Origin: Bugula neritina
Taxonomy: Eukaryota; Animalia; Bryozoa
Assembly (NCBI GenBank): GCA_964035545.1
Contig: OZ037770.1
Coordinates: 186,001-250,000 of the forward strand
Direction of reading: 5' to 3'
DNA: 64,000 nucleotides
The notes beneath the pieces are model-generated. The model searched no databases, was not told the DNA's origin, and saw only the letters and a program-made list of their open reading frames with translations. The position numbers and the translations under genes are program-made. The first letter of the stretch is position 1. Every line of letters starts with the position of its first letter. Below, piece by piece: positions 13,449 to 64,000 of the stretch.

Positions 13449-16271
13449 ATGGACAGAGATAGTCCTAACAGACCAAAACATAAAGTTTCAATAACTTTTG
13501 GTAATGATCCGGTAACGCCTCAGCGAATAGTGATGCCTACGCCAGCAAGAGAAAGGGTGAGTCACAATGATTGAATGACTATGACTCGTATGACTGATAC
13601 TATAAATGTGAGCATCAGTATGACTATGAAACTGAGTATCACTCGAGACTAATTAATCATTATGAATACGATAGCCACACTCATAAGGATTATTATTATA
13701 ATCATTGATAGCCAATTTTGAATACCCCCATTCTTATAAGCCTTAATATTAATATTGCTTTATAATTATTATAAATGTTTGCAAACTAACGCTACAAGTC
13801 AGGGCCTACTAATAGCAATTAAAGATTGTACTAATTCACAATTCATTTTAAATTCACACTGGTAGCTACTAGCATTACTTTTTGAAATCAAAGGCTTTAC
13901 TGGGCTTCTTTGTTCAAATTTCACTTCCATTTCTGGACTAATATTTTTCATTGGTTTAAAATAAAGTCTGAATGTCAAGTTATAGTAATAAATTTTTTTA
14001 TTTAAACAGGTGTCTGATAATGATTGATTTAAATATTATTTTCAGCATAATTATCATGTTTCATTTTTACATGCTAATAGTTGTAGTTGTAGTCTTACTG
14101 CTCTCTATAATAACATGTATTCAGTTATTATGACTTTTTAAGTTTTGTTCCTTAGATGAAAAACTTCAACTTTGAAAAAAACTTTACTGCCAACTAGTTT
14201 TGTTAGTAAACTCAATACTTAGTAGTGAAAGATTTATTGTTACTTACATATATTGTAGCTGATGTCAATGTTGACAACGTACAAAGTTGACGATGAAAAA
14301 GAAGTGTATAATATTTTGGTATCTAAGAAGGTTCTAGATTCACTGACTCCTCAAGAAATCAGAGATCTAAGAGTTGTGTTTGACGCCTTTGATGTGAACA
14401 TGGATGGGTGAGTCATCCACCATACTGAGACAAATACTTGTCCCAGTGTATTGTTTCAATGTTATTGTAGTTTTGATGTGAAACATTTCTAGAATTTTCA
14501 TTAGCATTTATTTATACTGGTCATGTTTCAACTGTTTCGCAACATTAACTGTTAGAATGACAATGAGGGTGATGATTAGGATAGTGTATGATCTTGTAGA
14601 CTAATTCCCCTGGTGGATGTGAGAAGAGCTTTATTGTCTCTCGGCTTCAAAGTTAGTAAAGGGGAAGTGAGGAACATGATGGCAGAAGTAGACTTGCAGG
14701 CAACTAACGGGTAGGAGTGAGTACTCAGTATGAGTGTGTCAGTACTCAGTATGAGTGTGTCAGTACTCAGTATGAGTGAGTCAGTACTCAGTATGAGTGT
14801 GTCAGTACTCAGTATGAGTGTGTCAGTACTCAGTATGAGTGTGTCAGTACTCAGTATGAGTGTGTCAGTACTCAGTATGAGTGTGTCAGTACTCAGTATG
14901 AGTGTGTCAGTACTCAGTATGAGTGTGTCAGTACTCAGTATGAGTGAGTCAGTACTCAGTATGAGTGAGTCAGTACTCAGTATGAGTGAGTCAGTACTCA
15001 GTATGAGTGAGTCAGTACTCAGTATGAGTGAGTCAGTACTCAGTATGAGTGAGTCAGTACTCAGTATGAGTGTGTCAGTACTCAGTATGAGTGTGTCAAT
15101 ACTCAGTATGAGTGTGAAACTGGTAGTCTAACTGAAACATGCATTAGATGTAAACACAGAATATGTTTACAGAGAGGCCAACTTCAACACTTTCTTGGAG
15201 TTTGTCATCGACAAGCAGGGGGATTCCCGGGACAGCCTGGATGAGCTGGAGAAATCATTTAAACAGTTTGACATTGGTGAGTACATTATCTATAGTGTTC
15301 CTGTAGTTACTACTCTTCTCCTTAAATCCATAGCAGCATTATGGCTGTGAGTTAGTAAATTCTATCTGAAGTAGATGTAACAACTAATAATATGTAGCTT
15401 TGTCAATGTACATATTCTTACAACAACACAATTAAAATAATTGGTATATAAATAGCTATCAACAGTGGTTAGCTCGTATAAAGTTTTAGGCTTTATCTCC
15501 ACCTGACCATCGATAAATTCTTTTTCAAAGAAATTCTCTAGATTTTGTTTAGGCTATTACTTAATTTTATGTCAAAATGTTTTCTATTCTCATTCTGGAA
15601 AATTATACTTGAAATTCTTAACAATAAATTAAAATTATGTATTCTAGAAACTTTCACACTTATATTTTATAAAATACAAATTGGTAGGTTTAACAAATTG
15701 CCGTTGACGAGCCAACTCTGGCTTCTCTTCATATCCACGTATAAATCTTTCGCCTTTTACTAAAGATTTCCGTGGAGAGGAACATTACAATGAGTCTATA
15801 GACTTATTTTTGACACCCTCCACGGGAGGGTAATTAACACCCTCAAATGAAGTTATCTTTATACACTCTCCTTGTTAAAATTTACTCTCGTGCTTCAACT
15901 TGTAGTGTGATAATGCACGAGATTGTGAGTTGAATATATTAGTGTTTCCTTAAATTACAGAACGTAGTGATAAGTTGACCCCAGCAAGTCTCAGGTCTCT
16001 CTGTAGACAGTTTGATGTGAATTTAAAAGATGAGGAGATATTAGATATGGTGAGAATATATATTTTAGGCAAACAGTTTTGTACTAATAATTTTTTACTA
16101 AGGTACATTACAATGAGCAGTATCAGCAACTAGTTGTAATCTTGGATTTAGCACAGTTAAAGGGTTGTCATTCCCTACATACAGGTTAGAGAAGCAGACA
16201 AGAATGGAGATGGAGCAGTTGATAAACAGGAGTTCATTGATATTATGATGAAAACTAACCTCTTTATATGA
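13449..16271 (+). CDS. Centrin-like EF-hand protein; exons 13449-13556, 14259-14407, 14600-14710, 15173-15276, 15961-16049, 16185-16271
   Basis: GT-AG exons splice in frame: ...LTPQEIRDLRVVFDAFDVNMDGLIPLVDVRRALLSLGF...EILDMVREADKNGDGAVDKQEFIDIMMKTNLFI*. The ALxxLGF motif and the IMxKTNLF C-terminus are centrin hallmarks. Not represented in the ORF track. Confidence 0.88.
14717..15116. repeat. 21-bp intronic minisatellite (gtcagtactcagtatgagtgt)
   Basis: About 19 copies starting just after the donor at 14711. Confidence 0.95.
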
Positions 16272-16786
16272 ATACGTCAGGACGAGAAGACAACTTCTAC
16301 AACTGACATTCTTGTAATGACTAACTGGTAGTATTTTAGGCATGTTATTTATATTCTATTTTTAGATGCAATTTATTATGGAATGTGACAATTGTGAGCT
16401 AAACAGTTAGTGTAGTACCACTAATAAGGTTATAGTTTGTATTCGCGCATACAGGTTCTACTCTGTTAGCAGATTGATCACTTACTGTCATGTAAAGTAT
16501 ACATAGTGTGTGACATGTATGTAAATATTTATTATAGTTTATTAAGAACCTATAAAATGTGAGAAAAATATAATAGGTTATATAAATGCAAAAATATTTG
16601 TATTCAACAGAATAAACTAAAATGGTCTCTGTAGAAAATATAAATATAGACACTAAGATAATATCTAGTGGTAATAGATAAATAATTCTGTCAGGAAGGG
16701 GAATTGTCTATATGGAAGAATTACTCATGACATTAGCATGCACTGTACTATAAGTATTATATAGTCAATATTACAGTATAATACTG

Positions 16787-28318
<11,532 letters not shown>

Positions 28319-31187: not shown

Positions 31188-32319
31188 ATGCGTCTGCTGT
31201 CGTTATTACGTAGTGTTTCATCTCGATCTGACATACAGTCTCAAGTTCGCTGTCGCTGCCTTTACTCAGCAAGTCAGACTAAACTGAGTTCACTAGAGAG
31301 CACAGCAAACCTTTCAACCAGCCCTACTAAACCCACCAGCGAACTGAAAGTTCCCCAGGCCGAATCTGATGTTTCTGTTGAGCAGACGACTTCAAGTGGT
31401 AATATAAAGTAATATTTTGTAGCCTTATAGGTTTGCTTTTCTTACTGCCCACGACCTAAATCACTGCTTAGACTGAGATTATATTTGTGGTAGAAGGGAA
31501 GGATGGAGTACGTGCCGGCTACAATTCAGACTTATCCGAGTGGGAGAAGTGGGCCTTAGTCTATACTAAAATTTATCCCAACAAGGAGTCTATACCAAAG
31601 ATTGTCCCGTAAGTTTACACCCTGCTCTCAGCTACTACCCACTCATCCATATCTCTTATTACTGTAGGTCTGTTAAGATATCTTATTACTGTAGGTCTGT
31701 TAAGATGTCGTCATGCCAGGACAAGTTACGGACGAGAGTGGCTCTCTATCTCACCGTGATCTGTCTCTCAACCTGCCTCCTGGTGTCTGCTAACCGTAAG
31801 TCTTAGTATACTTGTTGCCTGCGTTCTTATTGGTCAGTTTCTAGTGAAACATATTCTTATTGGTCAGTTTCTAGTGAAACATATTCTTATTGGTCAGTTT
31901 CTAGTGAAACATATTCTTACTGGTCAGTTTCATGTTACAAACTATCTAGACTTACCCTAAAGTATTACTGGGTAAAGCTGGTTAAAGTTATCTGGAAGAA
32001 AAACATGTTATAGTCAACTGTTCAGCGCCAGTTTTAATTATTCTTTTTATAGAACAGAATTAATATGTATCTCACCACAATGTTGATCTTTCCCACTCAG
32101 TCTTTATTTATTGTGGGAGGTAATATCTTGTTCACTGAATCTTTATTGTGGGAGGTAATATCTTGTTCACTGAATCTTTATTGTGGGAGGTAATATCTTG
32201 TCCACTGAGTCTTTATTGTGGGAGGTATTATTCTTGTAGACAGCGTAAAGCACAGGAACAGATCCGGACAGACGATGAATGAATACGCCAACAGCCAGTT
32301 GGGACTCAAGTCTGAATAG
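31188..32319 (+). CDS. FAM162: FAM162/DUF1075-like small mitochondrial membrane protein; exons 31188-31398, 31494-31608, 31695(or 31668)-31795, 32240-32319
   Basis: R/S/L-rich presequence-like N-terminus MRLLSLLRSVSSRS; core LSEWEKWALVYTKIYPNKESIPKIVP...QDKLRTRVALYLTVICLSTCLLV (one TM helix)...SGQTMNEYANSQLGLKSE*, matching the FAM162 layout. All junctions GT-AG and in frame. Confidence 0.75.
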
Positions 32320-45000: not shown

Positions 45001-46412
45001 AGTCTCTGACTACCTACAAAATCATAACCTTCAAGTTTAAAAAATTGAATTTCATCATCATTTAGCCAAGTTTCAGTTAAACAAATTACATCAAAGGGGT
45101 TAGAAAAAGTGTTCAAAAAATATTCAAAATGTGAAAATTTATTTCTAATGCTTTGAATATTAAAGTTAAGAAGAGAGAAAGTTGAATTATTTACTTCTAG
45201 TTTGTTAAAAGAAAAGATGTCGTATGCTGTGCAGTTAATTTCATGCATTTTGCAAAAGATAACTTAGCAGTTTAAGTTAAATACAAAAGTGAGGTACACT
45301 AAACACATTTCAGGTTCTCGAGATCATTTACATCATTTATTTGGATAGCCTCCGAGTCAGGTGTTCTGCGCAAGTAAATTCGTTGGGCAAATGTCCAAAC
45401 ATACTTATAGTTGTTTGATTTTTTGAAGTTTCTGGTTTTCCAAAAAAGGTCCCTTTGCTTACTACTGAGAACCTCGTTAATAAATATTTTGGAATCTGTT
45501 TGAAAACCTAATTGTTTTGTTGACATAATACTTTTACGATAAGTGTGGAAGAATGTATCTCTTTTATTGGTGTGAACAAACTTAACCACGATGCGCTTGG
45601 TTTGTCGAATTCTATAGATTTTATCAATGTCTTGTGTAGTTGATATTGAGGTCATTTTTAGATTTTTGATGATTCTATCAAAACCAGTCATTAGGTCTTC
45701 ATCTTTGTTGTATTCAATACCATTTAACTCGACGCACTTTGCTCTCTCATGGTGTTCAGATGTCTCTATTCTCTCATCAAGAGACTTGTACTCCTCCAGT
45801 TTTTGTTCAACGTGTTTGACAGAATTTTCAATCCTTGAGATATTGTAGTCATTTTTCCTAGTTTCTTGATGTACGAATTCCAGGGACTTTTCGAATTCTT
45901 TTTGAGTATTCTCAATAGCTGTCAGCCTTGATTTGATACTGGAGAATTCACTCAAAACCAGATCTAGTTTGTTGTCCAGTGTTTTTAGAGTCACCTCATC
46001 TTCTGAGGTAGACTTAGTTGATCTAGTAGAACGCATTGTGAAATATTTGTGATAAGTTTATACAAGCTTCAAAAATGTTGGAAAAAGCTAATGCATTTAA
46101 ACAGCTATGTAAGAGAGCTCTGTAAACACAACCTCTCTCAGCGAAAGCCAACTGCCAACTGCCATGTGTTGAATCACCTGTTGAAATACAAATTATACCT
46201 GCACTACTGGAGATTTACACTACCTAATAAACCAACAGCTGCTAATATAAATGATAAATTCTCACTTCTGTAGAGAAATTGCTGTGTTGGGTTAGAGAAC
46301 TCTTAGGTAACTTACTCTCACCTAGTCTGAACACCTGAGCGCTGCACCAGCATGCAGGTAGAGATAATACCATAAATAAACCAAACCTCCACATGGTACC
46401 AGCAGACGTCAT
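33080..46412 (-). CDS. Ionotropic glutamate receptor, kainate/AMPA-type, about 20 exons
   Basis: Signal-peptide exon 46322-46412; ATD exons from 41841-41990 downward; S1 [10 protein letters not shown]...WGGMTGKL and [33 protein letters not shown]; M1 [14 protein letters not shown]; M3 [11 protein letters not shown] (35919-36136); S2 [26 protein letters not shown]; M4 [12 protein letters not shown]. The last-exon acceptor is ambiguous (stop at 33080, 33192 or 33208). Confidence 0.9.
33247..33455. repeat. About 34-bp intronic minisatellite (cttagtaacatagctactaccacaccacactc-type)
   Basis: Direct. Confidence 0.9.
34040..35036. repeat. 11-bp intronic minisatellite (gtgtagttagt), about 1 kb
   Basis: Fills the intron almost end to end. 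Confidence 0.97.
35390..35917. repeat. 21-bp intronic minisatellite (tacagtacatagagtatatac) with an internal inverted block
   Basis: Runs from acceptor to donor; about 3 units are inverted at 35588-35650. Confidence 0.95.
36165..36560. repeat. About 19-bp minisatellite (tatactatgagttatacta) filling the iGluR pore-loop intron
   Basis: Direct. Confidence 0.95.
37191..37261 (+). pseudogene. tRNA-Val(TAC)-like pseudogene or tRNA-derived SINE head
   Basis: A box TGGTGTAATGG, B box GGTTCGAATCC and TAC in the loop position; acceptor and anticodon stems pair poorly. Confidence 0.6.
37845..38840. repeat. Two intronic arrays: 23-bp (37845-38112) and about 29-bp (38668-38840)
   Basis: Direct periodicity. 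Confidence 0.9.
39030..39720. repeat. 22-bp intronic minisatellite (agtatgagtaatacaaggtatc)
   Basis: About 31 copies running into the acceptor at 39028. Confidence 0.95.
40175..40592. repeat. 24-bp intronic minisatellite (tacagtgccgagtatatcaactac)
   Basis: Direct; abuts the donor. Confidence 0.95.
42009..42205. repeat. 32-bp minisatellite (atgtgttgaattacctgttgagacatgaaata) interrupted by the LINE; remainder at 46164-46186
   Basis: 6 copies on the left; the unit resumes immediately beyond the LINE 5' end. Confidence 0.9.
42378..45248 (-). CDS. LINE ORF2: apurinic-like endonuclease plus reverse transcriptase (956 aa)
   Basis: APE motifs [28 protein letters not shown]; RT motifs [41 protein letters not shown]; uninterrupted. 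Confidence 0.97.
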   Translation of the reverse strand: MHEINCTAYDIFSFNKLEVNNSTFSLLNFNIQSIRNKFSHFEYFLNTFSNPFDVICLTETWLNDDEIQFFKLEGYDFVGSQRLGRGGGVGAYVRCGLGADTKAVSLSGADVLSLVLHSQASKSSHFRLTIIYRQPGASSTDAFLSDLEAYISHDSSPHIVVGDINIDTLDMNVSDTYSTTISTYAFYNAITLPTRISSSRASCLDHILLNFSCINGKSGTIESDLSDHLPTFVTFQLNCSNRTNIVSDDMYRTINYSKLVSKINSFCWLKLFDDSQNCEVNYDIFITRLKFLIESCSQTIENNRPSKKFAQKPWITEHLLTQIKKKYALHKRVKKAPLNKKILKRYNAFRNNLNADLRTAKYDYFKAFISNCNSSQLWVLINEQTGKAKLNKRCFSSKLYSVEDSETMLDSNMDIANNFNLYFSTIAQKLASNFTNSNSDTYSMLTNITKEEFHLKKTDESQIIEIIEKLDSKKAIGLDNIPTKLIKFCKISLSTPLAYLFNKSIEEKIVPAQIKTAKILPFYKKGSHDRCENYRPISILPIFSKILEKIVNNQILNFLESKNLISKNQYGFRKNLSTADAVVKFKNNTLEAFNNGNCVLGIFIDFSKAFDTINHNILLAKMRKLGFSESTVSWVANYLSNRSHSTLVNATLSSSRSVTCGVPQGSVLGPTLFLIYINDLAQQFKLFNPIFYADDTNLFFESKDLNSHLEAINQDLNSLSIWCNKNKLTINYEKCNYIVLKNYQNPFQILENCILLNKRPINYSNSITFLGVQIDKNLNWSLHISNLLTKLRPLSGLIYRCSEYLPQKILLLIYNSFINSKLNYCAEAWGNAANTHLNKIFIFQKKVMRIMNKKPFDHPSAPLFTKHKVLSIYQIYRFKVLKKAHSFFYSDNFFPTHSINTRQSFINLPLPHSQTAAGHRRNCYQEVALWNELPIPLRSISNPNEFGRKLRLYLLE
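45299..46036 (-). CDS. LINE ORF1 nucleic-acid chaperone (coiled coil plus RRM/CTD-like, 245 aa)
   Basis: N-terminal heptad coiled coil, then VELNGI, IVVKF, IFINEVL and YKYVWT motifs typical of CR1-type ORF1; lies upstream of ORF2. Confidence 0.88.
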   Translation of the reverse strand: MRSTRSTKSTSEDEVTLKTLDNKLDLVLSEFSSIKSRLTAIENTQKEFEKSLEFVHQETRKNDYNISRIENSVKHVEQKLEEYKSLDERIETSEHHERAKCVELNGIEYNKDEDLMTGFDRIIKNLKMTSISTTQDIDKIYRIRQTKRIVVKFVHTNKRDTFFHTYRKSIMSTKQLGFQTDSKIFINEVLSSKQRDLFWKTRNFKKSNNYKYVWTFAQRIYLRRTPDSEAIQINDVNDLENLKCV

Positions 46413-48571: not shown

Positions 48572-49338
48572 TTAGCTGTATGTATTTTAACTGAATGTAC
48601 TTTAGCTGTGTGTATTTTAGCTGATGTGTATTTTAGCTGGGTGTATTTTAGCTGGGTGTATTTTAGCTGTGTGTATTTTAGCTGGGTGTATTTTAGCTGA
48701 GTGTATTTTAGCTGGGTGTATTTTAGCTGGGTGTATTTTAGCTGTGTGTATTTTAGCTGATGTGTATTTTAGCTGGGTGTATTTTAGCTGGGTGTATTTT
48801 AGCTAGATGTAATTTAGCTGGATATATTTTAGCTGGGTGTATTTTAGCTGTGTGTATTTTAACTGAATGTACTTTAGCTGTGTGTATTTTAGCTGATGTG
48901 TATTTTAGCTGGGTGTATTTTAGCTGGGTGTATTTTAGCTGTGTGTATTTTAGCTGATGTGTATTTTAGCTGGGTGTATTTTAGCTGGGTGTATTTTAGC
49001 TGTGTGTATTTTAGCTGGGTGTATTTTAGCTGAGTGTATTTTAGCTAGATGTAATTTAGCTGGATATATTTTAGCTGGGTGTATTTTAGCTGTGTGTATT
49101 TTAGCTGGGTGTATTTTAGCTGGGTGTATTTTAGCTAGATGTAATTTAGCTGGATATATTTTAGCTGGGTGTATTTTAGCTGTGTGTATTTTAACTGAAT
49201 GTACTTTAGCTGTGTGTATTTTAGCTGATGTGTATTTTAGCTGGGTGTATTTTAGCTGGGTGTATTTTAGCTGTGTGTATTTTAGCTGATGTGTATTTTA
49301 GCTAGATGTAATTTAGCTGGGTGTATTTTAGCTGGGTG
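48572..49338. repeat. 15/16-bp minisatellite (gtgtattttagctgg) with higher-order repetition
   Basis: Direct; variant blocks such as aactgaatgtac and agatgtaat recur. Confidence 0.95.
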
Positions 49339-50908
49339 TGGTATCTACACAGACAGCATTGGCTACAGAATGTCTACTATTTGCTAGCACCACATGTGTT
49401 TAGCCTGAATGGAATGATCACATCACAGAAAATTTTTATTTAATAATTATAAAACAGTGGGCTGTGTTTACATTATCATATAGCATTAGCATATATTCTG
49501 CTAATTTATTAAAATATTCTTTTATAAAATTTTGTTTTGTTTAAAAGAATTTGTTTTTTTGGAAGACATCCATTAATTAATATGCAAAGTGCGAGCTCTG
49601 CATTGTTCAATGGTGATCTTTCTGCATTTATTACATTTACACAGATTTAATTTGTGTGGAATTTATGCAGAGACTTGGGAGAGTACGAGAGTTAACATCT
49701 TTATGAATATGCATTGACTAGGGTGAAGCTGTCAACTATTTAAATAGAGCATAATATCTGCAACCAGTGTGCTGCTGCATACTTAATTATCTTGTGGTTA
49801 TCACACAGCTTTAAACTATCCTACACAATTATCATAACATTAACTGAGTAACTCTGAGGTGAGATAAATAACCGCAATGGCAAAAAGGTTAAACCTGGGT
49901 TTACCAGCTAAACAAATGACCTTCAGATATGTTGGTTAGTGGCTTTTAAACTCAAAGATAATCCAAACAAACACAATAAGTTGGTGGACATGGAACACAT
50001 CTTCACCAGGTACCACAGGGTAGAAGAAGCTGATGCAGGCATTACTTTACAGAAACTTATCTCTAACTCCACTATGCGAGCTTAAACTGTAAATCTCAAG
50101 TAGTACTTTATATTACTCAATGATTTAGTTATATTACCATCTACAATATATTACCATCTAGTATGTGATTTAGTAACTACATTAGTTACTATATGCAGGC
50201 AATAAACCCAAACCTCTACACTACAACACTATAGATTGTAGGATATACATTATATGTGTATATGTATTGTCGTATATTTAAACATTACATAATAAAAAGT
50301 AATAACATAACGTAGAGATAAAAGAATTGTTGATATTCGGAAGCCGTACTGTCAACTCAGTAAAATATGCTTTAACTAATATATGGGAACAAATTAACAA
50401 AATTTAAATATTTATTACAACTTAAAAACTTTTTTAAGAATATGCAAATTTCGTTTTGGTTAGAATTGCTGAGTCAACTGCATTACTGGAGAGTATTTAG
50501 GCTGCTAAGGAAAGTAGTGAACAAAGAGAAAAGGAGAAAAACTATTTGCTATAATTATGTGTAACATAGCACTCATTAATGTAACTGTAACATTAGCATA
50601 TATTGTAATAGTAGAGAGCATAGTATAACGTAGCAGTAGGTATAAACAGTGTGTAGAGAGAGGGAGGCGTGGCAGTGGAGATAGTGACATCTAGGAAGTG
50701 TATATAGAGTAAGGTAAGGGAACCTGACCAGCCTTGTCAGCCACTCCCTCCCCTTCCTTCACACATATGCCTTAATACTCTGCTAATTATATTCATTAGT
50801 ATTACAGGGCACAGCCCAGAATATATAACTCAAATATAAAAGTAAATACTCGAGGAATATGCTTCATTTTACTATGGTCTACTCGCAGCTGGCTGTGCGT
50901 ATGACAAC

Positions 50909-53900
50909 ATGGCAAGGAACATGTCTATACTACTTCAAGTGACGGTCATAGCGTATGTAGTCTGTGTGATATGTGTTGACGGATATGTAACGGGACATGC
51001 TCAAGGTGAGTTCACAGTCTATATTCCTAACTAGTGACACTCATGTGACAAGCATGTGACACAAAATGTAGTTCATATACTGCTAGCTGCTTGCATCTTC
51101 ATACACTAAACGAGGGAAATAAAGGAATTGTGTGCCCTCTGTGTTGCAGTTAAAATTCCGTACTCAAACTGTGTAACCTGATCACCATATGCTCCATCAA
51201 TATTCACGTGACTTACATGTAAACATATTTAGTGAATTTACATGGATTCGAAATGCTGTTACTTGTACTTGTAAGAAATTTTAAAATTAAAATAATAAAC
51301 TAAAAATAGCAAATTCACCTCAAAATCAAAGACACCTGAGCATTTTCTTGCTCACGTCTAATGACTGCACACTGAGGGATCCAGTTGATGAATTGCAGCA
51401 AGTGGATAAAATGTTTTATAAAGTTTCTTACTCAAAATATTATCTAACTACATTCTATTAGCTAGACTTAGAGAATCATGAAGTGTAGGCAGCTGGGAGA
51501 AGAAAAACAGGGAGGAAGAGTAAAGTTTTTTAAGGATAGAATAGCAGCAGTTTTTGTAATAAATAAACTAGTTTATCGGATACTTAACTAATTCCATAGT
51601 TAGGAAATCTTGCTAAGAAAATACTTACATAAATCTAATGAGAAATTGTACAACCAAAAAATGAAAGTATGACTGACTGATGAACATCACCGGCTGGTAT
51701 TGCTCGTACTTAGCTTATAACTTATGGCAAGAACTATATTCATGGAACACAAGTAAAGAAGTATACTAATGCGCTATGTATGAATGTATGTATGTATACA
51801 GGCAAGATCAAAGGAAACAGACAGGTGGCAGGGGACGGAGCAATACCAGTCCTTACCAAAGCGGAGAGGAACTGGGTGCAAGCTCTACGTGAACGGATAA
51901 GGAAACAGATACACAAAGTCTACGTGGTTCACTCTCACGGTAAGTAGAGATCCATCAATGAAGGCAATGCCAGCAGAGGTATTCGTGCTAATGCATTATA
52001 ACTGATAAATATCAAATAATGAGCTTGTTGTTATATAATAACAGCATACTGCATTTAGACACTTCTTTCAGGTGGGCAGAAAGAAGTGCGTGTTTACGAT
52101 CTACCAAAAGAAAGACAAAAGAAATCTGCAGGAGTTCCTCAGGAAAAACTAGTTCCTGGCAATCCACCAGCTCCTCAAGACCAACTAGACCCTGTGATAT
52201 TACCAATCCAAGTATTAACCCACCAACTGGCTCCTGGACACGCTCTAGCAATGGCACCAGTGGCTAGACCAGCACCAGTCAATCAACATAAACCAGTCCC
52301 TGGAAGAGTACCAGTTTACAAATTAGCTTCCACAGCAGCACCAGCCACCACAGCTGTACCAGTAACCACAGCAGCACCAGTAACCACAGCTGTACCAGTG
52401 GACCCACATAAACCAGGTCCTGTAACAGTTCCAGTACATCAACCGGCTCCAACCGCTGCACCAGCAACCACAGCAGCACCAGTAACCACAGCTGCACCAG
52501 TGGACCCACATAAACCAGGTCCTATAACAGTTCCAGTACATCAACCGGCTCCAACCGCTGCACCTGTAACTACAGCAGCACCAGTTGACCCACATAAACC
52601 AGGGCCTGCAACAGTTCCAGTACATCAACTGGCTCCAACCGCTGCACCAGTAACCACAGCTGCACCAGTGGACCCACATAAACCAGGTCCTGTAACAGTT
52701 TCAGTACATCAACCGGCTCCAACCGCTGCACCAGTAACCACAGCCACACCAGTGGACCCACATAAACCAGGTCCTGTAACAGTTCCAGTACATCAACCGG
52801 CTCCAACCGCTGCACCAGCAACCACAGCTGTACCAGTGACCACAGCTGCACCAGTAACCACAGCAGCACCAGTTGACCCACATAAACCAGGTCCTGCAAC
52901 AGTTTCAGTACATCAACCGGTTCCAACCGCTGCACCAGTAACCACAGCTGCACCAGTAACCACAGCTGCGCCAGTGGACCCACATAAACCAGGTCCTGTA
53001 ACAGTTCCAGTACATCAACCGGCTCCAACTGCTGCACCAGCAACCACAGCTGTACCAGTGACCACAGCTGCACCAGTAACCACAGCAGCACCAGTTGACC
53101 CACATAAACCAGGTCCTGCAACAGTTTCAGTACATCAACCGGTTCCAACCGCTGCACCAGTAACCACAGCTGCACCAGTAACCACAGCTGCGCCAGTGGA
53201 CCCACATAAACCAGGTCCTGTAACAGTTCCAGTACATCAACCGGCTCCAACTGCTGCACCGGTAACTACAGCAGCACCAGCAACCACAGCAGCACCAGTT
53301 GACCCACATAAACCAGGTCCTGCAACAGTTCCAGTACATCAACCGGCTCCAACCGCTGCACCGGTAACTACAGCTGCACCAGCAACCACAGCAGCACCAG
53401 TTGACCCACATAAACCAGGGCCTGCAACAGTTCCAGTACATCAACTGGCTCCAACCGCTGCACCAGTAACCACAGCTGCACCAGTGGACCCACATAAACC
53501 AGGTCCTGTAACAGTTTCAGTACATCAACCGGCTCCAACCGCTGCACCAGTAACCACAGCAGCACCAGTAACCACAGCTGCACCAGTGGACCCACATAAA
53601 CCAGGTCCCGTAACAGTTCCAGTACATCAACCGGCTCCAACCGCTGCACCGGTAACTACAGCTGCACCAGCAACCACAGCAGCACCAGTTGACCCACATA
53701 AACCAGGTCCTGCAACAGTTCCAGTACATCAACCGGTTCCAACCGCTGCACCAGTAACCACAGCTGCACCAGTAACCACAGCTGCACCAGTGGACCCACA
53801 TAAACCAGGTCCTGTAACAGTTCCAGTACATCAACCGGCTCCAACCGCTGCACCGGTAACTACAGCAGCACCAGCAACCACAGCAGCACCAGTTGACCCA

Positions 53901-56900
53901 CATAAACCAGGTCCTGCAACAGTTCCAGTACATCAACCGGCTCCAACCGCTGCACCGGTAACTACAGCTGCACCAGCAACCACAGCAGCACCAGTTGACC
54001 CACATAAACCAGGGCCTGCAACAGTTCCAGTACATCAACTGGCTCCAACCGCTGCACCAGTAACCACAGCTGCACCAGTGGACCCACATAAACCAGGTCC
54101 TGTAACAGTTTCAGTACATCAACCGGCTCCAACCGCTGCACCAGTAACCACAGCCGCACCAGTGGACCCACATAAACCAGGTCCTGTAACAGTTCCAGTA
54201 CATCAACCGGCTCCAACCGCTGCACCAGCAACCACAGCTGTACCAGTGACCACAGCTGCACCAGTAACCACAGCAGCACCAGTTGACCCACATAAACCAG
54301 GTACTGCAGCAGTTCCAGTACATCAACCGGCTCCAACCGCTGCACCAGTAACCACAGCTGCACCAGTAACCACAGCAGCACCAGTTGACCCACATAAACC
54401 AGGTACTGCAGCAGTTCCAGTACATCAACCAGCTCCGACCGCTGCACCAGTAACCACAGCAGCACCAGTTGACCCACATAAACCAGGTACTGCAACAGTT
54501 CCAGTACATCAACCGGCTCCAACCGCTGCACCAGCAACCACAGCAGCACCAGTTGACCCACATAAACCAGGGCCTGCAACAGTTCCAGTACATCAACCGG
54601 CTCTAACCGCTGCACCGGTAACTACAGCTGCACCAGCAACCACAGCAGCACCAGTTGACCCACATAACCCAGGTCCTGCAACAGTTCCAGTACATCAACC
54701 GGCTCCAACCGCTGCACCAGTAACCACAGCAGCACCAGTTGACCCACATAAACCAGGTCCTGCAACAGTTCCAGTACATCAACCGGCTCCAACCGCTGCA
54801 CCAGTAACCACAGCTGCACCAGTAACCACAGCTGCACCAGTGAACCCACATAAACCAGGTCCCGTAACAGTTCCAGTACATCAACCGGCTCCAACCGCTG
54901 CACCAGTAACCACAGCTGTACCAGTAACCACAGCCGCACCAGTTGACCCACATAAACCAGGGCCTGCAACAGTTCCAGTACATCAACCGGCTCCAACCGC
55001 TGCACCGGTAACTACAGCTGCACCAGTAACCACAGCAGCACCAGTTGACCCACATAAACCAGGTCCTGCAACAGTTTCAGTACATCAACCGGTTCCAACC
55101 GCTGCACCAGTAACCACAGCTGCACCAGTAACCACAGCTGCACCAGTGGACCCACATAAACCAGGTCCTGTAACAGTTCCAGTACATCAACCGGCTCCAA
55201 CCGCTGCACCAGTAACCACAGCTGTACCAGTAACCACAGCAGCACCAGTTGACCCACATAAACCAGGTCCTGCAACAGTTCCAGTACATCAACCGGCTCC
55301 AACCGCTGCACCAGTAACCACAGCTGTACCAGTAACCACAGCTGCACCAGTTGACCCACATAAACCAGGTCCTGCAACAGTTCCAGTACATCAACCGGTT
55401 CCAACCGCTGCACCAGCAACCACAGCTGCACCAGTAACCACAGCTGCACCAGTGGACCCACATAAACCAGGTCCTGTAACAGTTCCAGTACATCAACCGG
55501 CTCCAACCGCTGCACCAGTAACCACAGCTGCACCAGTAACCACAGCTGCACCAGTGGACCCACATAAACCAGGTCCCGTAACAGTTCCAGTACATCAACC
55601 GGCTCCAACCGCTGCACCAGTAACCACAGCTGTACCAGTAACCATAGCAGCACCAGTTGACCCACATAAACCAGGTCCTGCAACAGTTCCAGTACATCAA
55701 CCGGCTCCAACCGCTGCACCAGTAACCACAGCAGCACCAGTAAAAACAGCTGCACCAGTGGACCCACATAAACCAGGTCCCGTAACAGTTCCAGTACATC
55801 AACCGGTTCCAACCGCTGCACCAGTAACCACAGCTGCACCAGTAACCACAGCTGCACCAGTGGACCCACATAAACCAGGTCCCGTAACAGTTCCAGTACA
55901 TCAACCGGCTCCAACCGCTGCACCAGTAACCACAGCAGCACCAGTAACCACAGCTGCACCAGTGGACCCACATAAACCAGGTCCCGTAACAGTTCCAGTA
56001 CATCAACCGGTTCCAACCGCTGCACCAGTAACCACAGCTGCACCAGTAACCACAGCTGCACCAGTGGACCCACATAAACCAGGTCCTGTAACAGTTCCAG
56101 TACATCAACCGGCTCCAACCGCTGCACCAGCAACCACAGCAGCACCAGTAACTACAGCTGTACCAGTGGACCCACATAAACCAGGTCCTGTAACTGTTCC
56201 AGTACATCAACCGGCTCCAACCGCTGCACCAGTAACCACAGCTGCACCAGTAACTACAGCTGTACCAGTGGACCCACATAAACCAGGTCCTGTAACAGTT
56301 CCAGTACATCAACCGGCTCCAACCGCTGCACCAGTAACTACAGCTGCACCAGTAACCACAGCTGCACCAGTTGACCCACATAAACCAGGTCCTGCAACAG
56401 TTCCAGGACATCAACCGGCTGCTGGACATGCCCCACGAGAAGCACCAGTTACTACACCTCGTCATTCTTCAGCAACCCTCACCAAGCGCACAGAACCTCC
56501 CAAACATTCAAAAGATCCACAAAAAGAATTACAGCCACCAACTAGAAGCAAAATTTCTCCATTACCATCATCACAAAGTCCTGTGTCATCTTCTAATTCA
56601 ATAACCACACAGAATACAAAAACTTCAGCCACAGCAACCAACTCAAAGTTCTCACCTTCACTGTACAACCAACACCACATTTACATCACTTTCAACAATC
56701 ATGGTAATTTCTTAACCTATTAACTTGTTCAATATACATACAATACACTCTATAACTGACAGACTTTTTTACCTTCATGTGAGCCTTTTTTCTCTTTTCT
56801 ATTTCTTGTCACTAATTATGTTTCAATTTATCTGTTCCCATTAGGTCAGTCACAAACCTTCAGAAAAGGCCCCAATGGTCTGTTGACACCAGTAACAGGA

Positions 56901-58220
56901 TCACCACCCAATTTAAAGACCCAAACTCCACCAAATACTTCAATACCTCCATCACAACCAAACAAACAAGCAGCTGAAAGTACCACAGCTAACGCACCGA
57001 CTAAACATACAGCGCAGACAAAAGTGTTACCTGAATCAGCAGTGCCAACGACACCTCCACCACAAGCAAGTAAGCCTATTGTCCCAGCATCTCCATCATC
57101 TACGACCAATAATCCTGTGACTTCAGCAAATCATGTCACCCACCAAGATCCAATCAACATTAACAGACCTGCTGTAACACCATCTGAAGTATCAAATAGC
57201 AAAACCTCAGGTCAACCAGGAAATGTTCCACAAGAGACAACTCTTCACGACATTAAAACTCCTGCAGTTGATCATGTACCAGATACACACATAACACAAC
57301 CAGACCAATTTCAACCAGTAACAGAGCCACAGCAGCACAGCCCTACAGAGCCACAGCAACATCACCATGAGCAAACTGTAGTGGTGAATAGCAATGGACA
57401 CAAAGAGCCAAACCACCACCAACACACAATAGAGCAGGGTATCACAGAAGCACCACAGATCCACCACCAGCCGGCAGAGGAGCCTGGAAGATACTTACCT
57501 GGCGACATTCTCAATGCTGAGCCAAAGCCTTGGGGTGAGTAACTGTTAAACTCAACAGTTGTGAGTTACATAACCGTAACCATTACTCTTGTGCTAACAA
57601 TCTATTTGAATTAATAGTGACCGGTGGAGGGTGGACTGACCACTGTCCCCCACTTCTACTGGATCCCTATTACTCCAAGAGGTTAGACTTGAAGTGCAGA
57701 GAAGACAGAGACTGTCCAGCAAGCCTGAGATGTTGCCGCATAAACTACACAAAGCAATGTCTCTCAGAAGAGCAAATCACTGGAGGTAACCGCTTAAACA
57801 TTTACAGCTGCACTTTTTAGGTTACTTGCTTGTAACTCAGCTCAAGATAGAATAACGCGCGCTATCCTTTTACTTTAACTTTGCATTTTTAGCACAACAC
57901 TCGGCTCAACCTGTGCCAGAGAGCAAAACGCTAAAGTATAAAAAACCCGGCAGATGTCCGTATCTCAGACCAAGACGGTACTATGATCCTCCGCGGGACC
58001 CTGAATGTGAATCAGATGATGACTGCTCGGGGACTAAGAAATGCTGTAATATTCGTAACTCGATGCGCTGCACGCGAGCAAGGAAGGTCTATTACGTGAG
58101 TATCACCTTAAACTAATCTGAGAGCTAGTCATACAGGATGTTGGTGTTACTCTGAAATGAATTCCTTTACTTTCTGTACAACAGCCAAACTGTGGCATCA
58201 TTTGTTTTAGTAAGAGATAA
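50909..58220 (+). CDS. Secreted mucin-like tandem-repeat protein with two C-terminal WAP-like domains; exons 50909-51005, 51802-51939, 52072-56703, 56845-57534, 57618-57785, 57893-58095, 58185-58220
   Basis: Signal peptide MARNMSILLQVTVIAYVVCVICVDG; phase-compatible GT-AG junctions; 4.6-kb exon of PVDPHKPGPVTVPVHQPAPTAA(PVTTAA)n; P/T/Q/H-rich exon; Cys modules CP...CREDRDCPASLRCC...C and KPGRCP...CESDDDCSGTKKCC...C; TATAAAA at 50835. The last exon is less certain. Confidence 0.82.
52330..56420 (+). repeat. Coding VNTR: roughly 40 units of 84-120 bp built from a 66-bp core plus 1-3 18-bp PVTTAA modules
   Basis: Direct; all unit lengths are multiples of 3 and the frame is open throughout. Confidence 0.95.
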
Positions 58221-58786: not shown

Positions 58787-58988
58787 CAATGCATTGTGGG
58801 TACCAGCAATGCATTGTGGGTACCAGCAATGCATTGTGGGTACCAGCAATGCATTGTGGTTAACAGCAATGTATTCTGATTGAGCAAATGCACCAAGAGT
58901 AACTTGTTATGTCCGTGATGGTGCATTATGGGTACTAGTCTGCAGTGATGCATTATGGGTACTAGTCTGCAGTGATGCATTATGGGTT
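58787..58988. repeat. Tandem repeats starting at the caspase stop codon (27-bp and 21-bp units)
   Basis: gcattatgggtactagtctgcagtgat x2-3 and gcaatgcattgtgggtacca x3-4. Confidence 0.85.
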
Positions 58989-61900
58989 AAAGCCAGGAAA
59001 TAAGTAGAGTTTTTTATCACCAGTAAAGAAACACTCATCTGTAGGTTGCTGCCCGCTGACATGGCCGTACATCTTATTGGCTAGTATACTCTTGTCTCTC
59101 ACCTTTTTCTTCACCTGCATCAGTTACAACTCGTGTTATTATCGACAGCGTATAGACAGCGTACAGACAGCGTACAGACAGCGTACAGACAGCGTTAGCT
59201 CTGAGCTGGTCAGCACAGTCACACTACATTCTCACACAACACATGCGCCGAGTCCCATGAGAAGAAGGACAACTCCTAGATGTGAATATGTACAGTGACT
59301 CACCTGTTTGAAGATGGTCTGGATGTCACGGTGACAGGAGTGTTTGTAGAGAGCCACTACAATGGCTCGGATAAACCAGGTACCTTGTCGAGAGTGTCGC
59401 GATGAGACGAAACCTGTGTACACACACAATGCTTACATCATCAGTTAGTGTGTACACATACAATGCTTACATCATCAGTGTGTACACACACAATGTTTAC
59501 ATCATCAGTTAGTGAGTACACACACAATGTTTACATCATCAGTTAGTGAGTACACACACAATGATTACATCACCAGTTAGTGAGTACACACACAATGCTT
59601 ACATCATCAGTTAGTGAGTACACACACAATGCTTACATCATCAGTTAGTGAGTACACACACTACGCAGAATTACTTACTAAGAAAACTGGCTTTCATGAT
59701 ATACAGATCATCAGTTGATAAGTAATCCCCGGGGAAGGGAGATTCTACAGTCTGAGGTTTCTCTTTTTTCTGGGAGGCAGGATTACACACTTGAGCATCA
59801 CTGACTGTAGAAGCTGTGTCACTGGTATACTGACCCATTGTATCCCTCCGCTCTACAAGTGTGTCACAGCGTATAACTACGCCGCATAAACTAGATACTA
59901 CAAGGTATAAACTCGACACTACGAGGTATAAACTAGATACTACAAGGTATAAACTAGATACTACAAGGTATAAACTAGACACTACAAGGTATAAACTAGA
60001 CACTACGCCGTATAAACTAGATACTACAAGGTATAAACTAGACACTACGAGGTATAAACTAGATACTACGAGGTATAAACTCGACACTACAAGGTATAAA
60101 CTAGATACTACAAGGTATAAACTAGACACTACAAGGTATAAACTAGATACTACAAGGTATAAACTAGACACTACAAGGTATAAACTAGACACTACGCCGT
60201 ATAAACTAGATACTACAAGGTATAAACTAGACACTACGAGGTATAAACTAGATACTACGAGGTATAAACTAGACACTACGAGGTATAAACTAGATACTAC
60301 GAGGTATAAACTAGATACTACAAGGTATAAACTAGATATTACAAGGTATAAACTAGATACAACAAGGTATAAACTAGATACTACAAGGTATAAACTAGAC
60401 ACTACGAGGTATAAACTAGATACTACGAGGTATAAACTAGATACTACGAGGTATAAACTAGATACTACGAGGTATAAACTAGACACTACGAGGTATAAAC
60501 TAGATACTACGAGGTATAAACTAGATATTACAAGGTATAAACTAGATACAACAAGGCATAAACTAGATACTACAAGGTATAAACTAGATACTACGAGGTA
60601 TAAACTAGACACTACAAGGTATAAACTCGTTACCGCCAGAGCAAGCTTGTAGAATAACGAGTTTTGGTTTGCCGGCCATAGCAGGAAATCTGTAAGCGGA
60701 GAGAAGGTCAAACACATCGGAGTATTTGATTGGCTGATTATCTCTGCCATAAAGTCTGTTCTCTGTGCCGTGAGTCATGATTACAAGAGCACTCACCCCG
60801 ACCTCAGCGTAGCCTGGGTTCCTTGTCTCCTCCCGCACCGTCTCCAGCATCTCCTACATTACATTACACTACATAATAATATAATATTATATTACAGTAT
60901 ATGATATGTTATGATACATTATATAATAATACAGTATTACAGTATATAATAGTATATAATATGTTATGATACCTGGCTGGTCAAGTCAGTCTTGACTTCA
61001 CACACAAAATTCAAGTCTCTGAAGACAGTTGAGATGTTCCGGACGTCCATCTCAGACCCGTCTCTGTTCTCCAGCTTAACCTGACTGGTGGAGGGCGGCT
61101 GGTCAAAGTAGCGGTTGTTAATGATGAGACATCTGCCTCTGTGTGGAGTTGTCATCCTGTACACCTGTGATACAGTAATATACTAGTAATATAGTAGTAA
61201 TATACCAGTAATATAGTAGTAATATAGTAGTAATATACTAGTAATATAGTAGTAATATACTAGTAATATAGTAGTAATATACTAGTAATATACTAGTTAT
61301 ATACTAGTAATATAGTAGTAATATACTAGTAATACCGTAGTAATATATTAGTAATATAGTAGTAATATATTAGTAATACCGTAGTAATATATTAGTAATA
61401 TAGTAGTAATATATTAGTAATACAGTAGTAATATACTAGTAATACCGTAGTAATATATTAGTAATATAGTAGTAATATATTAGTAATACCGTAGTAATAT
61501 ATTAGTAATATAGTAGTAATATATTAGTAATACAGTAGTAATATACTAGTAATACAGTAGTAATATATTAGTAATACACTAGTAATACACTAGTAATATA
61601 CTAGTAATACAGTAGTAATATAGTAGTAATATACTACTATATTACTAGTAATATATTAGTAATATACTAGTAATATACTAGTAATGTAGTAGTAATATAC
61701 TAGTAACATGGTTAGTCATAAATTATAGCCATGCAGTAGCAACATAATACAGTACAATACTATGACATGATATAAAAATATACTATAATATCACAAGACA
61801 ACACAGCAATATAACACAACATAATACAATATAATATAATACAATATAATATAATACAATAATACAATACAACATAGCACCGAACACTCACCGAATCAGA

Positions 61901-63845
61901 ATTAAAAAGTTCCCGAATACGAGACTTCCTGCATGGCATGAGTCGTAACGAGATTCTGTCTAGATTTTCCTGATTCTCATCTAAATACTCCAAACTATCG
62001 GAGAGATCACTGTCGGAGTCCTCGGCCGCAGTTCTAGACTCAGTGTGAGTCGGGGGAGGTCTGTCCACCTCCTCTGTAGTGATAGGAACACCAGCTAAAT
62101 ATTCCTAGTCACTATCTAACAGTTACTAGTCACTATCTAACAGTTACTAGTCACTATCTAACAGTTACTAGTCACTATCTAATAGTTACTAGTCACTATC
62201 TAACAGTTACTAGTCACTATCTAACAGTTACTAGTCACTATCTAATAGTTACTAGTCACTATCTAATAGTTACTAGTAACTATCTAATAGTTACTAGTTA
62301 CTATCTAATAGTTACTAGTAACTATCTAATAGTTACTAGTTACTATCTAATAGTTACTAGTTACTATCTAATAGTTACTAGTCACTATCTAATAGTTACT
62401 AGTTACTAATTACCAAGTGATACTAGCACTAGAGAAACTATATGTAAACATAACTACTTGTATAGAGGTCATATCGATACATATATAAGTATAATTATAG
62501 TTATATCTATATATTACAATAATATGCCTGCGTGAGAACATTAATTCAAGTAGTGCGAAGATATGAGGTGTGCTCATGTTAAAGCAAGGGTAGCATCTAG
62601 ATTCTAGCCTGTCTACCAAAGGTTTATGACGGGGGTAGCAACTAGTATACAGTATCAGAAGGTATTAGGAGCTGAGTCCCACCAACTATTAGGAGAGTAA
62701 ATGTCATGCTATGAAGTGATATTACATCATATTACATTCTATTATAGTATATTATACTGTATTATATTACAGCATACTATATTATATTACATCATATTAT
62801 ACTATTACATAATAACCATCACCAAGCTAAGAGCATTTACCATAAATGGGTTCTCTACTGGAACTACCTGCAGTATACAGACACAACAGAGTTGAGAGTA
62901 TCAGTGAAGAGTGAACAGTGAATATAGTATCAGTGAATATAGTATCAGTGAATATAGTATCAGTGAATATAGTATCAGTGAATATAATATCAGTGAATAT
63001 AGTACCAGTGAATAGTGAAACAGTGAGAGGTTGTTGAGAAAGTGAAGGGAGATTATCTCTAAACTCACCGGGTGGTTGGATATTCCCTCCTCCGCCACTA
63101 AAACAAAGAGATGCACGTGTTGACTAAACTACTACTCAGCTCTGTAGAGATTAGTATAACTCTCTCATAAAGTGATACGAGGAGGGAAGACTCTCACATA
63201 CAGTGATACAAGGAGGGAAAACTCTCTCATACAGTGATACAAGGAGGGAAAACTCTCTCATACAGTGATACAAGGAGGGAAAACTCTCTCATACAGTGAT
63301 ACAAGGAGAGAAAACTCTCACATACAGTGATACAAGGAGAGATAACTCTCACATACAGTGATACAAGGAGAGATAACTCTCTCATACAGTGATACAAGGA
63401 GGGAAAACTCTCTCATACAGTGATACAGAGAGAGAAAACTCTCACATACAGTGATACAAGGAGGGATAACTCTCACATACAGTGATACAAGGAGGGATAA
63501 CTCTCACATACAGTGATACAGGGAGAGAAAACTCTCACATACAGCGATACAAGGAGGGAAAACTCTCACATACAGTGATACAAGGAGGGATAACTCTCAC
63601 ATACAGTGATACAAGGAGAGATAACTTTCACACAACAAGGATATTTTATGATACAAACAAACACATCTCCCAGAACTTAGAATTCACCTTCCAGGATCTC
63701 CTGAGCCACCAGCTCCTCCGGAAGCACCCCCTTGACCTCCAGCACCAGCTGGCCTTGTTTCCTGAACAGGTTCTGATGCGTGTTCTCTACTTGGAGCCAG
63801 TTCTGGCTTTAGAAGATCTGCCACTTCGAACTGGAACGTCTGGAC
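58980..63845 (-). CDS. Caspase-2-like initiator caspase, 5'-partial (prodomain continues beyond the window)
   Basis: Exons about 63688-63845, 63069-63097, 62841-62867, 61892-62094, 60973-61164, 60634-60853, 59678-59852, 59304-59413, 58980-59116. Motifs YRMTTPHRGRCLIINN, RDGSEMD, VIMTHG, GKPKLVILQACSG, SSRHSRQGTWFI and C-terminal KKLYLFPGFNP*. Confidence 0.9.
59414..59660. repeat. About 35-bp intronic minisatellite (gtacacacacaatgcttacatcatcagttagtga)
   Basis: Direct; abuts the acceptor. Confidence 0.9.
59872..60628. repeat. 21-bp intronic minisatellite (tataaactagatactacaagg)
   Basis: About 36 copies right after the QACSG exon donor; explains the LYLVVSS and YKLDTTR ORFs. Confidence 0.97.
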
Positions 63846-64000
63846 CTGTACATTACATATAATAGTGTATGTTATATATGGTACAGGGTATGTTATATAT
63901 AGTACAGTATATGTTATATATAATAGTGTACGTTATATATAGTACAGTATATGTTATATATAGTACAGTATATTATATATAGTACAGTATATGTTATATA
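61172..64000. repeat. Further caspase intronic arrays (61172-61706, 62105-62408 21-bp, 62900-63015, 63170-63630 31-bp, 63860-64000)
   Basis: Direct periodicity, a different unit in each intron. Confidence 0.9.

What the first reader, a model, noticed from the sequence alone, without database searches (positions are those of the whole stretch)
14711..64000. Window-wide pattern: most introns carry a private minisatellite anchored at a splice junction
Seen: over 30 introns in the PI3K, iGluR, caspase, centrin and FAM162 genes hold a tandem array with a unit unique to that intron (11-51 bp). Arrays typically begin within a few bp of a donor or acceptor, and several units include the junction itself. 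Copy number forms a continuum from 2-3 (26572, 31654, 36131, 40910) to dozens (20278, 34040, 39030, 59872). The mucin-gene introns and the young LINE lack such arrays. Inference: a mutational process seeds tandem duplications at exon-intron borders and expands them into the intron, for example at nucleosome edges, splicing-linked pauses or R-loops. It may drive intron length and possibly intron gain by duplicating AG|GT. Unique units argue against spread of one satellite or transposon family.
Basis: partly seen in the sequence, partly recalled or inferred. Interest (0 to 1): 0.78.

Follow-up and report, generated by a model that had tools for sequence, protein, structure and literature searches.

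The report
Stuttered introns in an invertebrate genome
About two-thirds of the intron DNA of four neighbouring animal genes consists of tandem repeats grown on the spot, each intron with its own; they likely sit close to exons mostly because these introns were very short to begin with, so this is likely an AT-rich invertebrate case of the 'sequence stuttering' already described in birds rather than a new splice-site-targeted mutation process.

Summary
The arrays are real and private: 38 of 55 modelled introns of five genes hold 47 arrays (units 10-51 bp); 14 junctions match RNA contigs exactly; a sister lineage has fewer copies at 4 of 4 resolvable arrays. 'Anchored within a few bp' is overstated: cut back to one unit the introns have a median of 95 nt, and edges within 5 nt (14 of 47) match chance (10.5). 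Units copying their own junction (7 donor, 3 acceptor) are no more than geometry predicts (about 7 per side). A real bias remains: donor side (18 vs 11.3), long introns (10 of 15 within 30 nt vs 3.2), five-fold density over intergenic DNA, donor-like words in units. Twenty arrays lie outside introns. No intron gain seen. This matches avian 'sequence stuttering' (PMC12954441) and amphioxus 'mirages' (PMC3087553), and this scan has noted the same on other genomes (sharks, octopods, other invertebrates). What differs: AT-rich, homopolymer-poor units, and 14 of 39 introns that would be shorter than any array-free intron without their array, a possible ratchet.

The parts
16787..28318 (-). Class I PI3K catalytic subunit gene, 24 coding exons, 1072 aa; 18 of 23 introns carry a minisatellite
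   Evidence: (46% over 1063 aa to P0125); introns 1-10 and 12 match RNA joints exactly
33080..46394 (-). Kainate-like ionotropic glutamate receptor gene, 19 introns, 13 with arrays
   Evidence: only the last acceptor seen in RNA
58980..62094 (-). Caspase gene, 3' six exons; 4 of 5 introns with arrays (upstream exons to 64000 not resolved)
31188..32320 (+).
   Evidence: (RNA joints)
13449..16271 (+).
50909..58220 (+). Mucin-like gene, 0 of 6 introns with arrays (control); GC3 0.23
26572..26645 (-). Mirage-type array: 17 exon nt + donor, 3 copies, 1-nt spacer; RNA of the sister lineage uses the exon-attached donor
22704..23366 (-). 35-bp x18.9 array whose unit holds 5 exon nt + the cognate donor
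40908..40967 (-). Doubling of 20 exon nt + donor, 2-nt spacer
31654..31706 (+). Doubling across the acceptor (12 exon nt), 1-nt spacer; RNA of the sister lineage joins at the exon-attached AG
35114..35194 (-). Diverged 42-bp doubling across the acceptor
37289..37372 (-). 31-bp x2.7 array whose unit is a diverged copy of the intron's own donor, 47 nt from it
40173..40596 (-). 24-bp x17.5 array starting at the donor GT
24936..25119 (-). 51-bp x3.6 array 7 nt from the donor, unit holds the first 9 intron nt; 1.6 units in the sister lineage
   Evidence: (tables 7, 8)
27766..28003 (-). 30-bp x7.9 array 6 nt from the donor; some copies hold a 9-nt match across the cognate donor
35392..35917 (-). 21-bp unit filling 526 of 528 nt of iGluR intron 15, with an internal inverted stretch (35574-35655); 24 nt left if cut to one unit
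19284..19684 (-). 20-bp x20.1 array; intron would be 38 nt if cut to one unit
34042..35037 (-). 11-bp x90.9 array, no G on the sense strand; intron would be 46 nt if cut to one unit
20278..21266 (-). 14-bp x71.8 array 5 nt from the donor
39029..39719 (-). 22-bp x31.4 array 2 nt from the acceptor
59886..60627 (-). 21-bp x35.3 array 6 nt from the donor
14720..15116 (+). 21-bp x18.9 array 9 nt from the donor, the only array in the centrin-like gene
32675..32901 (.). 13-bp x17.3 array in 3' UTR DNA (not an intron); about 1.3 units in the sister lineage
   Evidence: X5 record 19 runs 32674 to 32885
48572..49339 (.). 15-bp x50.8 array outside any modelled gene (largest of 20 non-intronic arrays)
42206..46163 (-). 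Young LINE (ORF1 245 aa, ORF2 956 aa with endonuclease and RT) inserted into the last unit of array 42010-42205 in iGluR intron 1

Best explanation
Most introns of four neighbouring genes are filled with tandem arrays copied from their own local sequence, and the arrays likely begin as short duplications anywhere in non-coding DNA, likely expand by ordinary minisatellite turnover, and likely end up against the exons because the introns were only about 95 bases long and splicing selection would spare only the splice signals. Shown: arrays are private, vary in copy number between lineages, and at one 3' UTR site grew from a single unit. Inferred step 1 (birth): slippage at 5-13-nt flanking repeats, or break repair by fill-in and end joining that leaves a 1-3-nt spacer. 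Inferred step 2 (growth): unequal exchange or conversion, strongest on homopolymer-poor, TpA-rich units and in genes with high GC3, likely a high-recombination domain. Inferred step 3 (placement): in a short intron any seed is near a junction and about one in seven per side includes it; long introns have homopolymer-rich interiors that seed poorly. Inferred step 4 (filter and ratchet): arrays with strong decoy donors stay short, edges stop at the donor hexamer and about 13-35 nt before the acceptor, and unique intron sequence erodes until the array itself supplies the minimum intron length, after which it would be hard to lose.
For: Collapsed introns median 95 nt, array-free introns 83-141 nt for 12 of 21. 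Short introns: 30 of 32 arrays within 30 nt vs 29.6 expected. Units with own donor 7, own acceptor 3 of 47 (with >=1 exon nt: 5 and 2) vs 6.6-7.7 per side from geometry. 20 arrays outside introns; 8 of 18 near-perfect low-copy duplications are outside genes, chance 0.05; UTR array 1.3 vs 17.3 units between lineages. Intron excess over intergenic DNA is 2.5-fold for <5 copies and 6.9-fold for >=5 copies (difference P = 0.07). Units have 0.12 identical neighbours vs 0.25 in residual intron (0 of 5000 draws); long-intron edges 0.22 vs interiors 0.28 (P = 1e-4). Donor strength of a unit falls with copy number (rho -0.44, P = 0.001; decoys in 3 of 18 arrays with >=10 copies, 18 of 32 below). Edges cluster 4-12 nt from donors and 13-35 nt from acceptors. 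14 of 39 introns drop below 83 nt at one unit, 10 at two units, 4 at three. GC3 0.52-0.60 in array-rich genes vs 0.42 and 0.23.
Against: A junction bias survives the collapse null: within 30 nt 40 of 47 vs 32.8 (P = 0.0006), long introns 10 of 15 vs 3.2 (P = 1e-4), donor within 12 nt 18 vs 11.3 (P = 0.008). Seed density is 5.9-7.0 per kb within 50 nt of exons and 0.2-1.8 beyond 100 nt. Donor-like words on the sense strand of units, 21 of 50 vs 8.3 in random intron pieces, exceed what the 5-7 cognate copies explain. Centrin, mucin and ASCL intron edges are just as homopolymer-poor (0.20) yet have few arrays, so composition is not enough. GC3 does not predict arrays within the four rich genes (P = 0.85). 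Erosion is inferred from a collapse, not from an outgroup. One window, seven genes; distance thresholds were chosen after seeing the data.
Confidence: 0.6

Rival explanations
1. A mutational process tied to exon borders, mainly the donor side (for example breaks or pausing at exon-positioned nucleosomes or at U1 binding), seeds duplications there and they then expand into the intron.
For: Donor within 12 nt 18 vs 11.3 (P = 0.008), long introns 10 of 15 vs 3.2; density gradient; donor-like words 21 of 50 vs 8.3; low-copy arrays already 2.5-fold denser in introns (P = 0.01); all 3 exact junction-spanning duplications carry an end-joining-like spacer.
Against: No excess in short introns; junction-copying units not above geometry; births outside introns; centrin and mucin have the same kind of junctions and 1 array in 11 introns; largest arrays are C-rich on the sense strand.
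Confidence: 0.25
2. Arrays are kept or favoured for a function in splicing (spacers, enhancer words, decoy sites) or are a route to new introns by AG|GT duplication.
For: 14 of 39 introns need the array to reach 83 nt; some units hold real splice sites; PMC3087553 proposes intron gain from mirages.
Against: Units are unrelated to each other and copy number differs freely between lineages; no unit joins both flanking exons; RNA contigs show one joint per intron for the 14 checked (sister lineage, contigs drop rare forms).
Confidence: 0.08
3. Arrays derive from one or a few mobile elements or satellite families that insert into introns.
For: Units share a TpA-rich vocabulary (10-mers shared by 40 pairs vs 27.9 +/- 5.6 in shuffles); the 27766 unit has about ten times the exon depth in run X7, so it may occur elsewhere.
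Against: 2 of 2775 unit pairs share a 12-mer; several units are copies of the gene's own exon edge; no repeats among non-array parts of the window (blastn); single-unit state seen in the sister lineage. No whole genome was available to search.
Confidence: 0.05
4. Arrays are assembly or long-read artefacts.
For: Copy numbers of the long arrays could not be checked against raw reads; the iGluR model lacks six conserved pore residues beside one array.
Against: Six contig ends of DNA run X14 fall 24-30 nt inside arrays, as expected if the repeats are in those reads (table 8; X14 may be the window's own sample); sister-lineage contigs carry variant units of arrays 24460, 25293, 25592, 27766; units vary among copies.
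Confidence: 0.02

Closest known systems
Sequence stuttering / exon stuttering on avian dot chromosomes (Hron et al. 2026, PMC12954441; seen: abstract, 12 passages, first part of section 7; supplements not read)
   Same: [quoted passage not shown]
   Different: Invertebrate; units short (10-51 bp), 34% GC, homopolymer-poor, with 2 G4 motifs in 64 kb, against the GC/G4-rich setting proposed for birds; introns are short at base (about 95 nt), and many would fall below the shortest array-free intron without the array; the paper reports birds and gerbils only and no distance-to-junction null in the parts I read.
Amphioxus 'mirage' minisatellites (Adh3, globins BflGb6/9, TnC, PGBD5; PMC3087553 and PMC3902484, passages read)
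   Same: Tandem copies spanning an exon-intron boundary, at 5' or 3' sites, units 10-160 bp, length-unstable, normal splicing reported.
   Different: Only about 7-10 of 47 arrays here are mirage-like; most units are purely intronic.
Ordinary minisatellite birth from short flanking repeats and tandem duplication by end joining (Haber and Louis 1998; Messer and Arndt 2007; recalled, not seen in any call)
   Same: 5-13-nt overhangs or 1-3-nt spacers at low-copy duplications.
   Different: Density: a third of the window is tandem repeat.

Membership tests
Sequence stuttering (Hron et al. 2026) | Introns highly repetitive, with locally expanded motifs confined between exons | tested here: met
   38 of 55 introns; median coverage 0.66; private units
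Sequence stuttering (Hron et al. 2026) | Extensive intron length variation within the species | tested here: inconclusive
   Three intronic arrays and one UTR array differ in a lineage about 4-5% diverged; one 11-bp non-intronic difference in X14; no set of same-lineage individuals
Sequence stuttering (Hron et al. 2026) | Occasional copying of an exon edge with its splice site | tested here: met
   6 of 47 arrays overlap an exon; cognate match 7 donor + 3 acceptor vs 0.8 + 0.4 non-cognate
Sequence stuttering (Hron et al. 2026) | Association with GC-rich coding sequence (reported correlate) | tested here: inconclusive
   Flanking GC3 0.57 with vs 0.50 without arrays (P = 0.015) but no effect within the four rich genes (P = 0.85); units 34% GC; 2 G4 motifs
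Sequence stuttering (Hron et al. 2026) | Restriction to a chromosome class or high-recombination domain | not testable with these tools
   No whole genome held
Mirage minisatellites | Repeat unit spans an exon-intron boundary | tested here: met
   26572, 22704, 40908, 31654, 35114 and, diverged, 37289; not met for most other arrays
Mirage minisatellites | Normal splicing at the exon-attached copy | tested here: inconclusive
   RNA joints use the exon-attached site at 26629 and 31695, but the RNA is from a sister lineage that may lack the extra copies
Intron gain by tandem duplication of AG|GT (Rogers model) | Intron sequence duplicates both flanking exon ends | tested here: not met
   Three matches of 7-14 nt, all explained by one-sided junction copies plus a chance GT or AG; intron-position conservation not tested
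Dispersed satellite or TE-derived arrays | Same unit at many loci | tested here: not met
   Within the window only: 2 of 2775 pairs share a 12-mer

The most novel reading that the evidence does not exclude
In this animal the arrays have become load-bearing: after a local repeat expands, the unique body of a minimal intron erodes down to the donor hexamer and the acceptor region, so a third of array-bearing introns can no longer lose their repeat and intron sequence is continually rebuilt from turnover of private minisatellites, with an added donor-side birth bias.
Probability: 0.3. Interest if true: 0.65.

Novelty: new member of a known kind. Interest (0 to 1): 0.4.

Why it matters
It extends sequence stuttering, published for birds and gerbils, to an AT-rich invertebrate gene cluster without G4-rich repeats, which weakens the idea that GC-rich secondary structure is required. 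Short introns plus a 4-5% diverged sister lineage make the open question (mutation bias at junctions versus geometry and selection) directly testable by polarising new duplications. If arrays supply minimum intron length, that would be a neutral ratchet for intron growth. It also warns that 'anchoring at splice sites' must be tested against the collapsed intron.

Tried and rejected
No whole genome, so nothing genome-wide. Two protein searches with PI3K exons found nothing; the organism stayed unnamed; best iGluR matches are 37-38% to nemertean, annelid, mollusc and brachiopod proteins, and 'bryozoan' is only my untested guess. The metagenome scan gave two loci of other organisms (52% and 70% matches) without comparable intronic arrays; no orthologous genomic DNA was obtained. 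No listed run is on record as RNA; their spliced joints argue they are. Hairpin-prone units: no excess (4.96 vs 5.17 in shuffles). Branch-point scan with a strict motif was uninformative. Acceptor decoys show no trend with copy number. Depletion of acceptor-spanning units is weak (P about 0.03-0.19 depending on the count and on two cases seen by eye). The Fisher test for short collapsed introns (P = 0.001) is partly circular because 83 nt is the minimum of the comparison set. A tRNA-like stretch near 37200 was not found by ARAGORN or Rfam. Literature: searches found no paper on this pattern in bryozoans or on array-dependent minimal introns; 'sequence stuttering' occurs in two works, 'mirage' in three; the library lacks most subscription journals; supplements not read.
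Full report
What is there. The window is animal DNA; no whole genome is held. TRF at score 40 merges into 100 arrays, 21,489 bp or 33.6% of the window, including 4.1 kb of coding mucin repeat. I modelled seven genes by hand from frames and GT..AG signals: all 62 introns are GT..AG and every frame is open (caspase frame corrected). The PI3K model aligns at 46% over 1063 residues to a full-length relative and the iGluR model at 37-38%; Pfam confirms PI3K, iGluR and caspase exons but gave nothing for the single centrin-like, FAM162-like and mucin exons tested. RNA-like contigs from a lineage about 4-5% diverged confirm 11 PI3K introns exactly and a twelfth with shifted ends, the three FAM162 introns and the last iGluR acceptor. 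The other 40 of 55 introns rest on sequence alone. The caspase exons upstream of 62094 could not be resolved and their five arrays were left out.

The observation. With score >=50 and unit >=10 bp, 38 of 55 introns in the five named genes carry 47 arrays: PI3K 18 of 23, iGluR 13 of 19, caspase 4 of 5, FAM162 2 of 3, centrin 1 of 5; mucin 0 of 6. In the four rich genes arrays are 11,560 of 17,351 intron bases, iGluR intron 1 excluded, and explain intron length (r = 0.89). Units are private: of 2775 pairs among 75 units, 2 share a 12-mer (shuffles 4.7) and 40 share a 10-mer (27.9 +/- 5.6). They share a composition: 34% GC, TpA-rich, almost free of A or T runs, with 0.12 identical neighbours against 0.25 in residual intron. 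The LINE has two intact ORFs and sits inside the last unit of array 42010, so it is younger than that array.

Are they real and moving? Six contig ends of DNA run X14 fall 24-30 nt inside arrays, though X14 may be the window's own sample. Sister-lineage contigs carry variant units of four arrays and resolve four others, each with fewer copies: 24936 (1.6 vs 3.6), 26471 (48 nt fewer), 24301 (one unit fewer) and the 3' UTR array 32675 (about 1.3 vs 17.3). Contigs can bridge only short arrays and the arrays were picked in the window, so the direction is ascertainment-biased.

Is there anchoring? Cut back to one unit, array-bearing introns have a median of 95 nt. With seeds placed at random inside them, edges within 5 nt are 14 of 47 (null 10.5, P = 0.12), within 10 nt 23 (18.2, P = 0.05), within 20 nt 30 (27.7), within 30 nt 40 (32.8, P = 0.0006). 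The last excess comes wholly from long introns (10 of 15 vs 3.2); short introns show none (30 of 32 vs 29.6). It is asymmetric: donor within 12 nt 18 vs 11.3 (P = 0.008), acceptor within 12 nt 8 vs 11.3, acceptor at 13-35 nt 20 vs 14.4. Thresholds were chosen after seeing the data. Units that copy their own junction number 7 donors and 3 acceptors, far above non-cognate matches (0.8, 0.4), which proves local origin; but a seed of the same length dropped on a short intron would span a given side 6.6-7.7 times, so there is no excess. Twenty arrays lie outside introns; density is 5.1 per collapsed kb in the five genes' introns and 1.1 outside, 2.5-fold for low-copy and 6.9-fold for high-copy arrays, and falls from 6-7 per kb within 50 nt of an exon to 0.2-1.8 beyond 100 nt. 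Some 'intergenic' DNA may hide UTR introns; I had no RNA for it.

How it likely works. Birth: among 18 near-perfect low-copy duplications (chance 0.05), 8 have 5-13-nt overhangs, as for slippage between short repeats, and 7 have a 1-3-nt spacer, as for fill-in and end joining, including all three that span a junction; the mechanisms are inferred and the precedents recalled. Placement: short introns, and long-intron interiors that are richer in homopolymer steps than their edges (0.28 vs 0.22). Filter: donor-like words are common in low-copy units (18 of 32) and rare in arrays of ten or more copies (3 of 18; rho -0.44; the matrix came from the same 62 introns); the two largest arrays have a strong C excess on the sense strand, which also argues against R-loop drive although units overall show a G excess (+0.19 vs -0.03). 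Ratchet: 14 of 39 array-bearing introns fall below the shortest array-free intron (83 nt) at one unit, 10 at two units, 4 at three; iGluR intron 15 is 526 of 528 nt array. Gene level: GC3 is 0.52-0.60 in rich genes, 0.42 in centrin and 0.23 in mucin, compatible with a recombination-linked domain but untested, and ASCL (0.53) also has three arrays. Against my reading: the donor-like excess (21 of 50 vs 8.3) is larger than the cognate copies explain, and array-poor genes have equally homopolymer-poor intron edges, so a donor-side birth bias remains open. No unit joins both flanking exons: no intron gain seen.

What is known. PMC12954441 (abstract, passages, first part of section 7) defines sequence stuttering by repetitive introns of local origin, length variation within species and occasional exon-edge copies, in birds and gerbils, tied to GC-rich genes. 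PMC3087553 and PMC3902484 (passages) describe amphioxus mirages. Two of the three defining features are met here; within-species variation is inconclusive. Earlier notes of this scan report the same on other genomes, including invertebrates and sharks; these are unchecked and add no support, but the mirage paper came to me through them. My searches found no paper on this pattern in the guessed taxon or on array-dependent minimal introns, within a library that lacks most subscription journals.

Verdict. Real, striking, largely known in kind. The junction-seeding mechanism is not needed for most of the pattern and is not excluded for the donor side. New member of a known kind; interest 0.4; the load-bearing-array reading (probability 0.3) would deserve 0.65.

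Noticed in passing
window 36137-36565 (iGluR intron 14, - strand): The spliced model lacks six residues of the conserved pore motif found in five homologues; the intron is 400 of 429 nt array and has a 20-nt imperfect doubling of the acceptor. Hidden micro-exon, assembly loss inside the array, or a real pore deletion: unresolved.
   Followed up: partly
window 42010-46185: An intact LINE inserted into the final unit of a minisatellite; the unit resumes after the element, and its ORF1 matches Baculo_FP_2nd.
   Followed up: partly
window 36930-37170: The acceptor region of iGluR intron 12 is present three times in 90-140-nt diverged blocks with AT-rich micro-repeats between; TRF does not report it as one array.
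   Followed up: partly
window 35574-35655: Inverted stretch inside the 21-bp array of iGluR intron 15, suggesting template switching.
   Followed up: no
window 37196-37260: Stretch with tRNA-like box motifs (recalled resemblance, possible SINE head); not detected by ARAGORN or Rfam.
   Followed up: partly
window 27766-28003: This unit has about ten times the exon depth in run X7: larger array in the sister lineage or copies elsewhere.
   Followed up: no
window 26067-26093: Short coding repeat in a PI3K linker exon; the sister lineage has 6 nt more.
   Followed up: no
window 30260-30410: TAT/TAG-type low-complexity patch with summed depth about 275,000 in X14: a very abundant simple-repeat vocabulary in this genome.
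   Followed up: no
window 32259-33211: FAM162-like and iGluR 3' ends converge and single contigs cover both UTRs.
   Followed up: no
window 52072-56703: 4.6-kb mucin exon made of 18-, 84- and 102-bp in-frame repeats; cysteine-rich C-terminal exons had no Pfam hit on the exon tested.
   Followed up: no
   Followed up: partly
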